64,000 nt of DNA, taken from NCBI RefSeq assembly GCF_013167455.1, contig NZ_CP038328.1; one strand, given 5' to 3'. A program made the position numbers. Below, one piece after another: positions 59,301 through 62,300 of the stretch. The DNA is from Escherichia coli O157:H7. GTDB taxonomy: Bacteria > Pseudomonadota > Gammaproteobacteria > Enterobacterales > Enterobacteriaceae. Position 1 is the first letter of the stretch. Every line of letters starts with the position of its first letter.

Positions 59301-62300
59301 TCAGAATAATCACTATCAGCGCCGTGGTGTGAGGTATTACGGCGCATTGCTATGCAGGACAACACAATGACCGATAAAGAATTGACCAAAACATTATCAC
59401 CGGCACGGAAAAGACGGCGCAGAAAGATAGAGCATGAATCAGAAAGATTCGCACCATGTGCTTTTGCCCTTGAGCAATTCCTTAAAGAGTACAGGGAAAA
59501 GCGCTCATTGCAGGTATGGCAACGAACTGAACCAGACTGATTGCATTGCCCACCAGCCTGATAGCGGCTATCATCCCCGTGCTTATGTTTGGGATCACAT
59601 ACACATAAGGCGCAGCGGGTTAATTGTTCAGAAAGGCGGCTCCATATCGGGGCCGCTTTTTTCGTGTTTGTCATATCTGTGATACCCGTTAAGCAGCCGT
59701 TCCGCGTGCTTCCTCTTCGCGTTCTTTCTGCCAGGACAACACATCATCCTCATACCATCCGCGACGGCGTAAACCAACGCGAAAACCCTGCGGAAATTCT
59801 CCGGCGTTGATCATGCTTTGCAGCGTGCTGTCTGCCTTGATGTGGATAATTTTTTTTACTTCCTGGCGAAAGATAATTTTTCTGATTGCTTCCATCGTGA
59901 TTTACCTTGTGAATCCGGTGTATTCCGGTGACAAATACGGTAAATCATCGGATATGGGTAAAAACAGTTCCCACCGTTTTTAAACGGTATACACCGTTTT
60001 TTATATTGATGATTTGAAATGGAATTATAAAAAAAGCGGCATTTCTGCCGCTTCCAGGATTGTTACCGCCATTTTTTGGGCCTGCCTCCGATCTTCATAG
60101 ATGCCGGACGTACGACCTTATCAATACTTACCGCCAGATTTCTGGAAGCGCCACGGGATACCAGAAAATCTACTACCTGTTTTTTTGATGGGGCCGTCGT
60201 TCTGTCCTCCGGATCGTAGGTTGACCAAAATTCATGCTGAACCATCAGGGCCAGTTGCAGCCCGTCGCAATTGCATCTGATATTTTTTTGCATCTTAACG
60301 GTTTCATGTTTCACGGCCTTGTCGTTAAATTTGATGCAATTATACGACGGTTTTACATGGTTTTCGTAGTTTTTACTGGTTTTCTGTACAGCTACACGGC
60401 TCGGATACCCCTTTTACCACTGGCGAGGGTTACGCCCGTCGCCGCGGCCTCGACAAATTCGCCCCACCAGCGCATCAGCACGATGCGTTTTTCTATGTAG
60501 TTGCTCCGGTTGTATGCCCGTCTAACTTCGTTGGTGTCGACGTGGGCAAGTGCCGCCTCTATTACGTCCGGCTCGAATCCTTCCTCGTTCGCTGCTGTGC
60601 TGAATATGGCGCGTAATCCATGAGACACCAGCACGCCAGCGAATCCCATACGCCGCAATGCTGCGTTAGCTGTCTGGCTGTTCATCGGCTGCTGTGGGTC
60701 TTTCAGACTTGGGAAAACGTAATTGCGGTGGTGGCTGATTGGTTTCATGGCCTCCAGCACCGCCATAGCCTGACCGGAAAGCGGGATAACGTGATCCCTG
60801 CGCATCTTCATGCGTCCGGCAGGTATCGTCCATTGCTTCGCGTCCAGGTTGATTTCATCCCACCGCGTTGATGACGCTTCGGCGGGACGGGTTACGGTCA
60901 GTAACTGCCATTCAATCAGTAATCTGGTCTGCCGTTCTGTTGCCGATACTGATAAAGCCTGCATAAGCTCGGGCAGCTGTTCGGGGCGGATTGTTGGCAT
61001 ATGTTTTTTTACAGGTGAGGGAAACGCCTTACGCACATTCATAGCCGGATTGGCATCAATCAGCCCACTGTTGGCGGCGTAATCCATTACCTCATTAACG
61101 CGCTGTAAAACCCGCTTGAGTGTTTCCAGGTTGCCGCGCTCCTTGATGGGGGTAAGCACTTCAACGAACCTTCGGGCGGTGAGGGTATCTATTGGCGTGT
61201 TGCCGATGAACGGGAATACATATTTATCCAGCGAACGCCAGATGTCTTTAATCGTGTTGGGGGCCAGATTCTGGCTGATTTTCACCTGGTACCATGCCGC
61301 CGCCACATTTTCGAACGTGTTCCCTTGTCTTCGGGCCTCTGTCTCTCTTTTTTGCCTCTCGTGGTCCTGCGGGTCAGTTCCGGCACTGATTAACGTCCTG
61401 TACTCGCTACGGCGTTTTCTGGCATCAGCCAGGGAAACATCTTCAAGCGATCCAAAACTCAGCAATATTCTTTTTTTGTCCGATGGTCGGTAGTAGGAAA
61501 ATCTCCAGAGTTTTGATCCAGACGGTTTGACCAGGAGAAAAAGCCCTCCGCCGTCCTGCAGGGTGTACTCCTTTTGCGCTGGTCTGGCTGCTTTGATCTG
61601 CACTGTGGTTAATGGGTGTGTTTTTCTCGCCATATGTCTATGATTCCACACGAAAAAACAGGGTTTTAGTTATACGGCTTTAGTTATACGCCAGCCCGTA
61701 TAACTAAACGTATAACTAAAAAATCCGGCTGATAGCTTATAAATCCGGTGATGTTCGGTGACTAAAAAACATAAAAAAACCCGCCAATCAAGTGATTAGC
61801 GGGTTATCCCTGTCTTATCCGGTGCTTTCCGGTGATATCCGGTGGGCGATTTGGTCGGCACGAGAGGATTTGAACCTCCGACCCCCGACACCCCATGACG
61901 GTGCGCTACCAGGCTGCGCTACGTGCCGACTCGTGGTTGTTAATACTACCGTTTTCCACACCGATTGCAAGTAAGATATTTCGCTAACTGATTTATAATT
62001 AATCAGTTAGCGATAAAACGCTTCTCGTCTGTCAGTACTTGCAATAACAAACTTAACTGTGGTTTTTCATCTTTCACTCTTTCACCACGTAAGTTGTAAG
62101 TGCGGTATTTACCGTTATTGTTCAGCACCAGCGTCTTTTTCGGGGTGGTAATTGCCAGCGTATCGTTATCCGCTGCGGTAACCCAGTAATGACGGCGTTG
62201 AGGGTTGAACAAATCCTGACCTTGCGAATATTCGCTGGCAGGTGTGCTGACATGTAGCAGGCGTTGCATCAGCGTCGTCATCAGATCGGTATGATCAGTC

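What the first reader, a model, noticed from the sequence alone, without database searches (positions are those of the whole stretch)
59352..60314. Unassigned small ORFs flanking alpA on the integrase side of the island
A 62-aa basic ORF (59352-59540) and an 83-aa ORF (60063-60314) have no recognisable motifs and sit in the variable zone between regulators and integrase, where satellites often carry accessory genes. They are too small for a classical multi-domain defence system but could be anti-phage or helper-sensing factors.
Basis: inference. Interest (0 to 1): 0.4.

Follow-up and report, generated by a model that had tools for sequence, protein, structure and literature searches.

The report
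Two small regulatory-core genes flanking alpA
The two small reading frames next to alpA are real, conserved genes, but they sit in the regulatory switch of a P4-related phage satellite of E. coli rather than being cargo or defence genes, and what they do is still untested.

Summary

**Starts.** The 62-aa ORF most likely starts at the conserved ATG 59367, giving 57 aa. The 83-aa ORF lies on the minus strand and most likely starts at 60293, giving 76 aa.

**ORF76.**
- It has its own TATAAT promoter and its own terminator.
- It is a stand-alone copy of an unnamed C-terminal domain: three helices plus a Gly-Arg-Pro tail.
- That domain ends 190-380 aa proteins which occupy the same slot, integrase - X - alpA, in distant islands.

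**ORF57.**
- It is an Escherichia/Shigella-only add-on.
- It is the second gene behind a ribbon-helix-helix gene, either YlcI type or Arc type.
- The operators of that ribbon-helix-helix protein co-vary with its allele, not with the ORF57 allele.

**Antisense context.** The YlcI-ORF57 pair lies antisense inside a long minus-strand frame kept free of stops. This frame matches P4's eta/kil nested genes.

**Function.** There is no hit to any defence, toxin or named family. The best guess is that both are accessory regulators of the satellite's on/off switch; the mechanism is inferred, not shown.

The parts
59367..59540 (+). A 57-aa basic protein (pI 9.9) predicted to form two helices. Invariant core E..ERFAPCAF.LE.FLK.Y.
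   Evidence: The start is conserved in all homologues and the upstream ATG is not. pN/pS is 0.45. There are 94 protein clusters, all Escherichia/Shigella. It matches PHROG 21027. AlphaFold predicts helices 3-27 and 29-54 with pLDDT 74.
59310..59366 (+). 57-nt spacer of constant length between the RHH stop codon and the ORF57 ATG. It holds a conserved hairpin (59319-59345) and a CAGG Shine-Dalgarno-like motif.
   Evidence: The same spacer follows both the YlcI-type and the Arc-type RHH genes.
59130..59309 (+). ylcI: a YlcI/YnfO-family ribbon-helix-helix protein and the first cistron of the + strand cassette.
   Evidence: NCBIfam NF041551 at E=1.1e-16. PHROG 949, plus weak Arc-like hits. RefSeq annotation. 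pN/pS 0.45.
59027..59108 (.). Switch region with three direct repeats (G)GTGTCAGCCAC at 59027-59038, 59052-59063 and 59098-59108. They overlap a minus-strand promoter (-35 59068-59063, -10 59045-59040) and the ylcI -10 (TATACT, 59094-59099).
   Evidence: The repeats keep their positions but change sequence together with the YlcI allele in 15 loci.
59630..59662 (+). Intrinsic terminator of the ylcI-ORF57 cassette. It is one-directional: the T-run is on the + strand only.
   Evidence: A terminator-like hairpin before a T-run was found downstream of ORF57 in 11 of 16 loci examined, with compensated stem variants.
58961..59674 (-). eta-like read-through frame (237 codons here). It starts 15 nt after the alpA stop and runs antisense through the terminator hairpin, ORF57, ylcI and the switch region. 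In the window it is broken, and it overlaps the next frame (58378-59010), which ends in the Icd/Kil-like peptide.
   Evidence: In 15 relatives the frame is stop-free for 309-607 codons, running to the icd stop in all but one (L011). P4 shows the same layout.
59689..59895 (-). alpA (Vis-like HTH regulator).
   Evidence: Pfam Phage_AlpA at E=0.0028, below the family's curated cut-off. PHROG excisionase/regulator family. RefSeq.
59955..59995 (.). Palindromic region upstream of alpA (ACCGTTTTTAAACGGT / AACGGTATACACCGTT).
   Evidence: It is a near-perfect 20-nt-arm palindrome in the second allele class.
60032..60055 (-). Intrinsic terminator of ORF76.
   Evidence: Present in all eight proL-type loci examined (both allele classes), with a different stem sequence in the second class.
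60063..60293 (-). A 76-aa protein consisting of a three-helix domain plus a C-terminal GGRPKKWR tail.
   Evidence: pN/pS 0.26. AlphaFold pLDDT 83 with helices 10-23, 37-46 and 51-61. The domain family has 452 representatives.
60339..60383 (-). ORF76 promoter: a perfect TATAAT (60344-60339) preceded by four phased AAAAC repeats (60383-60345).
   Evidence: Read directly from the sequence. Conserved in both allele classes.
60392..61633 (-). Integrase. ORF76 is always found next to this integrase type.
58621..58806 (-). C4/CI-type antisense RNA (58621-58708) and an isrK-like leader RNA (58730-58806) of the immunity region.
   Evidence: Rfam: 77.6 bits and 66 bits, both above gathering score.

Best explanation
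Both ORFs are genuine small protein genes. They belong to the regulatory core of a P4-related, PICI-type satellite integrated at tRNA-Pro (proL), not to its cargo.

**ORF76 (60063-60293, minus strand).**
- It is the minimal form of the 'X' gene that fills the integrase - X - alpA slot in AlpA-type islands.
- It keeps only the conserved C-terminal domain of that family: a three-helix, HTH-like bundle followed by a Gly-Arg-Pro basic tail.
- It is transcribed from its own constitutive-looking promoter to its own terminator, which ends just before the alpA promoter.
- Inferred: it binds AT-rich or palindromic DNA at the alpA promoter, and perhaps at its own promoter, and sets the basal level of the AlpA activator.

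**ORF57 (59367-59540, plus strand).**
- It is an Escherichia-specific second cistron of the island's ribbon-helix-helix operon (ylcI-ORF57).
- The RHH protein, not ORF57, carries operator specificity for the divergent P_LE-like and ylcI promoters.
- The cassette is transcribed head-on against read-through from alpA, and it lies antisense inside an eta-like frame that must stay translatable.
- Inferred: ORF57 is a small basic helical accessory factor of this switch, such as a co-regulator or nucleic-acid binder expressed together with the repressor.

**Shown versus inferred.** Shown: gene status, operon and synteny context, and the covariation patterns. Inferred: every binding and regulatory activity.
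For: **Gene status.**
- pN/pS is 0.45 for ORF57, identical to ylcI, and 0.26 for ORF76. Four of the five other frames of each give about 0.9-2.3 with stops.
- ORF57 has a conserved ATG, a CAGG motif and a constant 57-nt spacer.
- Homologues reach down to 44% identity for ORF57 and 67% for ORF76 within E. coli.

**Transcription units.**
- The + strand terminator lies at 59630-59662. A terminator-like hairpin follows ORF57 in 11 of 16 loci examined.
- ORF76 has a TATAAT promoter and its own terminator, conserved in two allele classes.

**ORF76 context.**
- The domain is found at the C-terminus of 452 representative proteins.
- A 265-aa homologue sits in the same slot in E. coli islands.
- int-X-alpA synteny is seen in distant contigs L019, L025, L026, L028, L082 and L084-L086. 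X-alpA adjacency is seen in L021/22 and L083.
- ORF76 is present in 373 of 5426 E. coli genomes. The annotation under the match includes the integrase in 29 of the 30 rows listed.

**ORF57 context.**
- It is always directly behind an RHH gene, of YlcI type or of an unrelated Arc type.
- Operator repeats co-vary with the YlcI allele while ORF57 alleles assort independently.

**Published background.** A global repressor of Gram-negative PICIs has not been identified, and AlpA is the helper-induced activator (PMC6092414; PMC11773190).
Against: - No experiment, transcript or peptide evidence is available here.
- ORF57 is all-helical and only 57 aa, with no homologue of known function. Its co-phased antisense frame also shows pN/pS below 1 (0.59) and is stop-free, so sequence statistics alone cannot fully separate the two strands.
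- RefSeq does not annotate ORF57 in the identical copy. It calls a minus-strand pseudogene there instead.
- The repeated motifs near alpA could equally be sites for AlpA or for a helper-phage protein.
- ORF76 lacks the N-terminal domain and the int-alpA RNA leader of most family members, so it may work differently from them.
Confidence: 0.55

Rival explanations
1. ORF57 is not a gene. The + frame is an open 'shadow' of the minus-strand eta-like frame, which is the element under selection, or the region is conserved for an RNA or terminator function.
For: - The minus frame is stop-free in all loci: 1 stop in 2107 codons in the pieces that carry no plus-strand gene, against 167 and 120 in the other two minus frames.
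- Minus-frame pN/pS within ORF57 is 0.59, with a bootstrap interval that overlaps the plus frame's.
- RefSeq annotates the minus strand here.
- The C-terminal tail of ORF57 varies by frameshift-like changes.
Against: - The plus frame has the lower pN/pS and reproduces exactly the pattern of the bona fide gene ylcI, which lies in the same antisense situation.
- The ATG and the CAGG motif are invariant, the spacer length is constant, and a plus-strand terminator follows in 11 of 16 loci.
- The minus-strand translation is Cys/Ser/Arg-rich and poorly conserved outside the overlaps.
- RefSeq does annotate the plus-strand gene in other genomes.
Confidence: 0.12
2. ylcI-ORF57 is a toxin-antitoxin or addiction-like pair, with an RHH antitoxin and a small toxin, that stabilises the island.
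For: - The layout is a two-gene operon with the RHH gene first, and operators sit over its own promoter.
- The downstream gene is exchanged between different RHH partners, as in modular TA systems.
- One source labels a homologue cluster 'RelE' (P0063).
Against: - ORF57 shows no similarity to any toxin family in Pfam, NCBIfam or PADLOC.
- It is 57 aa and predicted all-helical, unlike the RelE/ParE folds.
- The same ORF57 allele pairs with three different YlcI alleles and with an unrelated Arc-type RHH, which argues against a specific neutralising interface.
- YlcI occurs without ORF57 in distant islands.
Confidence: 0.1
3. One or both ORFs are anti-phage or helper-interference factors expressed from the quiescent island. 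The model would be lambda rexAB riding on the cI transcript.
For: - ORF57 is co-transcribed with a putative maintenance repressor, which is the classical position for prophage-encoded exclusion genes (inference).
- Nearby slots in relatives hold BRO-N/Ant/Rha and DUF6387 genes.
- ORF57 is lineage-restricted and mosaic.
Against: - No PADLOC match was found.
- Both genes are positionally fixed rather than variable.
- The ORF76 family is syntenic with int and alpA over large evolutionary distances, which suggests a housekeeping role for the element.
Confidence: 0.15
4. ORF76 is a recombination directionality or architectural cofactor of the adjacent integrase, not a transcriptional regulator of alpA.
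For: - It is strictly linked to one integrase type.
- It is small and basic, with a minor-groove-type Gly-Arg-Pro tail.
- It lies directly downstream of int.
Against: - It shows no similarity to Xis/HTH_17/Vis families, and AlpA/Vis already fills the excisionase-like role in these elements (PMC6092414).
- It has its own promoter and terminator rather than being coupled to int.
- It lies more than 1.3 kb from the att core at the tRNA.
Confidence: 0.2

Closest known systems
Bacteriophage P4 left-operon control region (vis - eta/kil nested genes - CI RNA)
   Same: - The gene order matches: AlpA/Vis-like gene, then a long frame that starts at the vis/alpA stop and ends in a 65-68 aa Kil/Icd-like peptide.
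- That frame passes an isrK-like leader and a C4/CI RNA. Both RNAs are found in the window and in P4.
- The frame is kept stop-free in 15 related islands.
   Different: - P4 has no ylcI-ORF57 cassette inside the frame and no X gene between int and vis.
- The window's frame is split into two overlapping ORFs.
- Most relatives lack the C4 RNA.
- The role of eta translation in P4 is recalled from Forti et al. 1999 (J Bacteriol 181:5225). That paper could not be read here.
E. coli PICIs (EcCICFT073, EcCIMP1)
   Same: The island has the int / alpA / primase / terS layout. AlpA is the helper-induced activator of these elements (PMC6092414; PMC11773190).
   Different: - Those papers describe no gene between int and alpA, no RHH cassette, and state that a repressor is not known.
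- They regard PICIs and P4 as sharing only Int, AlpA and Pri. This island also shares the P4 immunity architecture.
YlcI/YnfO family and Arc/Mnt-type ribbon-helix-helix repressors
   Same: The gene upstream of ORF57 is a member (NF041551). Operator-like repeats over two promoters co-vary with its allele.
   Different: ORF57 itself has no RHH and matches no family. No partner protein of this kind was found described for YlcI or Arc.
Rfam int-alpA RNA motif (RF02996)
   Same: The motif is located between int and alpA genes. In relatives it lies directly upstream of the long X genes.
   Different: It is absent from the window (no hit at E<=1). ORF76 has an A-tract/TATAAT promoter in its place.
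SaPI Stl / PICI Rpr master repressors
   Same: The position is similar, between int and the activator/excision gene. The long X proteins combine a conserved putative DNA-binding domain with a variable second domain.
   Different: - There is no sequence or fold relationship.
- X is co-oriented with alpA rather than divergent.
- ORF76 lacks the variable domain.
- A repressor function is pure inference.

Membership tests
P4-type immunity/read-through region | A C4/CI-type antisense RNA within the leader | tested here: met
   Rfam C4 scores 77.6 bits (gathering score 45) at 58621-58708 on the minus strand. P4 gives 74.9 bits.
P4-type immunity/read-through region | A short Kil/Icd-like ORF nested in frame at the end of a long ORF that begins at the vis/alpA stop, upstream of the constitutive promoter | tested here: inconclusive
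   The feature is met in 14 of 15 related loci (309-607 stop-free codons ending at the icd stop; L011's frame stops short of it) and in P4. In the window the frame ends at 58961 and overlaps a second frame, 59010-58378, which carries the Icd-like motif (NF033153).
P4-type immunity/read-through region | Translation of the long frame prevents Rho-dependent termination | not testable with these tools
   This needs reporter assays with and without bicyclomycin, and stop-codon mutants.
Type II toxin-antitoxin (RHH antitoxin + toxin) | The downstream gene belongs to a toxin family or has a toxin fold | tested here: not met
   No Pfam, NCBIfam or PADLOC hit. The model is two helices only.
Type II toxin-antitoxin (RHH antitoxin + toxin) | Cognate co-variation of antitoxin and toxin | tested here: not met
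   The same ORF57 allele (98% identical) is found with three YlcI alleles and with an Arc-type RHH.
Known anti-phage defence systems (PADLOC) | Match to a defence-system protein model | tested here: not met
   One search gave no hit for ORF57, ORF76, YlcI, the long X proteins or DUF6387.
Helix-turn-helix DNA-binding proteins (ORF76) | A three-helix HTH fold with significant similarity to a solved HTH | tested here: inconclusive
AT-hook-like minor-groove tail (ORF76) | A Gly-Arg-Pro core flanked by basic residues | tested here: met
   The tail is GGRPKKWR. G76, G77, R78, P79 and K81 (83-aa numbering) are invariant in the close family, and GRP/GPR variants occur across the wide family. DNA binding itself was not tested.
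Excisionase / AlpA / Vis (HTH_17) family | Match to Phage_AlpA, HTH_17 or Xis profiles | tested here: not met
   ORF76 and ORF57 gave no such hit. The neighbouring alpA does match.
Rfam int-alpA RNA | Covariance-model match between int and alpA | tested here: not met
   No hit in 52000-62000 at E<=1. The motif is present in L006 and L007.
X family (int-X-alpA slot proteins, unnamed) | The conserved C-terminal domain FWSTYDP.D..TAP....V..(W/F)L...G.S...A..ID..LRP...GGRP | tested here: met
   ORF76 aligns over the whole domain. hhalign to the E. coli 265-aa X gives E=6.6e-5 at 64% probability.
X family (int-X-alpA slot proteins, unnamed) | Position directly upstream of alpA and downstream of int | tested here: met
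   True in the window and in L019, L025, L026, L028, L082 and L084-L086.
X family (int-X-alpA slot proteins, unnamed) | An N-terminal domain of 120-300 aa | tested here: not met
   ORF76 is 76 aa and only 98 nt separate it from the int stop. It is a minimal variant.

The most novel reading that the evidence does not exclude
The int-X-alpA protein family (of which ORF76 is the minimal form) and/or the RHH-ORF57 operon are the long-sought repressor layer of Gram-negative PICIs. X would hold the alpA promoter shut. In the long forms, its variable N-terminal domain or the int-alpA RNA leader would sense the helper phage. The allele-specific YlcI repressor, assisted by ORF57, would silence the P_LE-like promoter. 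ORF57 would then be a young, Escherichia-born gene that arose antisense inside a frame that is translated only to block termination.
Probability: 0.2. Interest if true: 0.75.

Novelty: new variant of a known kind. Interest (0 to 1): 0.45.

Why it matters
How Gram-negative PICIs are kept silent, and how helper phages switch on alpA, is an open question. [quoted passage not shown]

This locus offers three concrete, cheaply testable candidates placed exactly at the two control promoters:
- ORF76/X, at the alpA promoter.
- YlcI, with operators that co-vary with its allele.
- ORF57, its constant companion.

It also links these PICIs to P4's immunity architecture. It shows a case where two sense genes are maintained antisense inside a frame that appears to be selected only to stay open. 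That is relevant both for annotation (RefSeq alternately calls either strand) and for ideas on how new genes arise.

If both ORFs turn out to be inert, the result is still useful. It corrects gene starts and strand, and removes them from lists of defence candidates.

Tried and rejected
- tblastn of ORF62, ORF83 and YlcI against 50,697 phage records: no match.
- PADLOC: nothing.
- PDB sequence profiles for both families: only chance-level hits.
- Foldseek against viral models: nothing at E<=0.001.
- The afdb50 library was unavailable.
- Pfam on 59 domain members and on 10 long X proteins: no family. Only scattered hits above E=0.004, including SAM_3, RecX_HTH1 and DUF3742.
- ORF76 against DUF6387, the gene at the same slot in L004: unrelated.
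- X and ORF76 against P4 cII, the gene downstream of P4 int: unrelated.
- The idea that ORF76 is a decaying remnant of a long X was rejected. Two allele classes both retain the promoter, the terminator and pN/pS 0.26, and there is no room for N-terminal remnants.
- The idea that ORF57 carries operator specificity was rejected by allele assortment.
- Shared 8-mers between the int-X and X-alpA spacers as a test for a common operator: nothing convincing in distant loci. In the window, AAAAC[CG][AG]T occurs 4 times where 0.15 is expected, which is suggestive only.
- The Forti et al. 1999 paper on P4 eta/kil could not be retrieved. The P4 layout was instead checked directly on the P4 sequence.
- The first attempt to scan IMG/VR with the wide alignment failed because no stretch was conserved enough. 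A narrower alignment worked.
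Full report
**Setting.** The window's last 10 kb holds a satellite-type island inserted at tRNA-Pro(GGG) (61852-61928, minus strand) next to yejM. All of its main genes are on the minus strand:
- integrase, 60392-61633
- alpA, 59689-59895
- an immunity region with an isrK-like RNA (58730-58806) and a C4/CI-type antisense RNA (58621-58708), both above Rfam gathering scores
- an Icd/Kil-like peptide
- DUF4222
- a primase
- a small terminase subunit
- a capsid-like gene

**Observation.** Both ORFs are present. The 83-aa ORF is on the minus strand.

Homologues correct both starts.
- For the 62-aa ORF, the first ATG is not conserved (Leu in most relatives), but Met6 is invariant. This gives ATG 59367 and a 57-aa product, ORF57. 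A CAGG motif 8-9 nt upstream and a spacer of exactly 57 nt after the upstream stop codon are conserved in all loci.
- For the 83-aa ORF, all 11 database clusters and RefSeq start at Met8. This gives ATG 60293 and a 76-aa product, ORF76 (WP_001171357.1).

**Are they genes?** Codon-level comparisons were made across 15 non-identical ORF57 alleles and 7 ORF76 alleles.

| Gene | Own frame pN/pS (bootstrap interval) | Co-phased antisense frame | Remaining four frames |
|---|---|---|---|
| ORF57 | 0.45 (0.34-0.58) | 0.59, no stops | 0.88-1.20, many stops |
| ylcI (control) | 0.45 | 0.57, no stops | 0.80-1.34, with stops |
| ORF76 | 0.26 (0.16-0.38) | 0.42, with stops | 1.35-2.26, with stops |

- The accepted neighbour ylcI lies in the same antisense situation as ORF57. 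It gives the same pattern, so ORF57 behaves like a real plus-strand gene (ORF76 values).
- ORF57 is followed by a plus-strand intrinsic terminator (59630-59662). A terminator-like hairpin before a T-run follows ORF57 in 11 of 16 loci examined, with compensated stem variants.
- ORF76 has a perfect TATAAT (60344-60339) behind four phased AAAAC repeats, and its own terminator (60055-60032). Both are conserved in two allele classes.

**The complication on the other strand.** RefSeq does not annotate ORF57 in the identical copy. It calls a minus-strand pseudogene instead, and in other genomes it calls long 'Icd-like' proteins. Following this up showed several things.
- In all 15 related loci that carry ORF57, one minus-strand frame is stop-free for 309-607 codons. 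It runs from inside the 3' end of alpA (or of a BRO-N gene) to the stop of the Icd-like gene in all but one (L011).
- In the pieces that carry no plus-strand gene, this frame has 1 stop in 2107 codons. The other two minus frames have 167 and 120.
- P4 itself shows the same layout. Its frame starts at the vis stop and spans 199 codons. It passes the isrK-like and C4/CI RNAs, and its last 65 codons are kil.
- This matches my recollection of Forti et al. 1999, where translation of eta from the upstream promoter prevents Rho-dependent termination. I could not retrieve that paper, so the mechanism rests on memory plus the sequence check.

The ylcI-ORF57 cassette therefore lies antisense inside a frame that is selected to stay open. 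This explains why both strands look 'open' and why annotators alternate between them. In the window the frame is split: 59674-58961 overlaps 59010-58378.

**ORF57 in context.**
- The family has 94 clusters at 90% identity, all from Escherichia or Shigella and all labelled 'hypothetical'. It matches PHROG 21027, of unknown function.
- AlphaFold gives two helices (3-27 and 29-54; pLDDT 74). The protein is basic (pI 9.9), with an Arg-rich N-terminal half and an invariant core ERFAPCAF.LE.FLK.Y.
- It always follows an RHH gene. Usually this is YlcI; in O157-type islands it is an unrelated 57-aa Arc-type protein. The spacer and hairpin are the same in both cases.
- Upstream of ylcI, three 11-12-nt GTG...CAC repeats sit at fixed positions over a minus-strand promoter and over the ylcI -10.
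- The repeat sequence changes with the YlcI allele. ORF57 alleles assort independently: the same YlcI and operators occur with ORF57 alleles that are 62% and 98% identical to the window's, and the same ORF57 occurs with three YlcI alleles.
- So YlcI is the specificity-bearing DNA binder and ORF57 is a separable companion.
- YlcI occurs antisense in distant alpA islands without ORF57. ORF57 is therefore a lineage-specific addition.

**ORF76 in context.**
- A profile search of 1.84 billion representatives found 452 proteins. Nearly all are 190-380 aa and carry the ORF76 domain at their extreme C-terminus: FWSTYDP.D..TAP....V..WL...G.S...A..ID..LRP...GGRP. None of 10 long family proteins scanned matched any Pfam family at E<=0.001 or any NCBIfam or PHROG family at E<=0.01, and 59 domain segments gave no Pfam hit below E=0.007.
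- A 265-aa member occupies the int-alpA slot in other E. coli islands.
- In distant contigs the order int - X - alpA recurs, in L019/20, L025/26, L028, L082 and L084-86. X - alpA adjacency is seen in L021/22 and L083.
- In E. coli, ORF76 is present in 373 of 5426 genomes. In 29 of the 30 rows listed, the annotation under the match includes the same integrase type.
- Long X genes are preceded by the Rfam int-alpA RNA motif. ORF76 lacks both that leader and the N-terminal domain.

**Interpretation.** Both genes belong to the control region rather than to cargo.

My best reading is as follows. I put about 0.8 on 'real genes of the regulatory core' and about 0.3 on the specific activities.
- ORF76 is a constitutively expressed DNA-binding factor acting at the adjacent alpA promoter/palindrome.
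- ORF57 is an accessory factor of the RHH-controlled switch. It is expressed with the repressor and head-on to alpA read-through.

Rivals are:
- a shadow ORF
- a toxin-antitoxin pair
- a defence or 'moron' gene
- an integrase cofactor

None is excluded experimentally. The toxin-antitoxin and defence readings lack any homology support.

**Comparison with the literature.** The founding PICI paper reports that AlpA is a helper-induced activator and that a global repressor of Gram-negative PICIs is unclear. It considers P4 and PICIs to share only Int, AlpA and Pri (PMC6092414). EcCIMP1 work confirms alpA as master regulator (PMC11773190). I found no paper in the held library that describes the X family, ORF57, or an RHH repressor in these elements.

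**Verdict.**
- The 'variable accessory / defence' reading is not supported.
- The genes are conserved, uncharacterised parts of a P4-like switch.
- Interest is moderate: the finding gives testable candidates for an open regulatory question, but no function is shown.

Noticed in passing
window 58961-59674 (-) and 58378-59010 (-); loci L002-L017; P4 L018 8171-8821: A minus-strand frame from the alpA stop to the Icd/Kil-like stop is kept stop-free for 309-607 codons in the 15 related loci with ORF57 (ending short of the icd stop only in L011). In the pieces with no plus-strand gene it has 1 stop in 2107 codons, against 167 and 120 in the other two minus frames. P4's eta/kil has the same layout. 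In the window the frame is split in two.
   Followed up: yes
window 59027-59038, 59052-59063, 59098-59108: Three GTG..CAC repeats lie over a minus-strand promoter and over the ylcI -10. They keep their positions, but their sequence co-varies with the YlcI allele across 15 loci. This makes YlcI a candidate allele-specific repressor of these islands.
   Followed up: partly
window 58621-58708 (-) and 58730-58806 (-): There are a C4/CI-type antisense RNA and an isrK-like RNA, as in P4. RefSeq annotates an 'ash family protein' pseudogene across this region. Most related islands lack the C4 RNA: only the window, P4 and L011 have it.
   Followed up: partly
L006 6340-6407, L007 6015-6082; L019, L025, L028, L082, L084-L086 int-X spacers: The Rfam 'int-alpA RNA' motif lies immediately upstream of the long X genes, so it looks like their 5' leader. 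The window's short X (ORF76) lacks it.
   Followed up: partly
window 59955-59995; X-alpA spacers of L007, L013-L017, L019, L085: The regions upstream of alpA carry locus-specific palindromes. Many are of the type TACCCAYC/GRTGGGTA, and L007 has five copies of ACCCTKAGGGT. In the window, AAAAC[CG][AG]T occurs four times on the minus strand in 59880-60400, where 0.15 is expected.
   Followed up: partly
window 58964-59000: A hairpin at the start of the P_LE-like transcript is present in all related loci, with compensatory stem changes. It also reads as a terminator-like site on the plus strand.
   Followed up: no
window 59319-59345: A conserved hairpin, GCGCCGTGGTG..ACGGCGC, lies in the constant 57-nt spacer between the RHH stop and the ORF57 start. 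It could be a processing or attenuation site.
   Followed up: no
L003, L006, L007 (downstream of alpA); L004 3856-4710: Related islands carry BRO-N, AntA/AntB and Rha genes directly after alpA, or a DUF6387 gene between int and alpA. These are the truly variable slots.
   Followed up: no
YlcI alignment; window 59265-59309 and 59403-59445: The YlcI C-terminal tail IKRRQRRKAKE(S/Q)E is near-invariant across the short (59-60 aa) alleles; in the 101-aa alleles an about 42-aa insert splits it, leaving RRQ before and QRRK(A/T/V)(K/Q)E(S/Q)E after. It resembles the ORF57 N-terminal RKRRRRKIEHESE. Its meaning is unknown.
   Followed up: no
window 55945-57777 vs L001 6113-7513: The replication gene is mosaic. 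The window has a 610-aa primase, whereas otherwise identical islands carry a RepA-family helicase.
   Followed up: no
protein P0063: One source (JGI) names an ORF57 homologue cluster 'mRNA-degrading endonuclease RelE'. Nothing in sequence or fold supports this name.
   Followed up: partly
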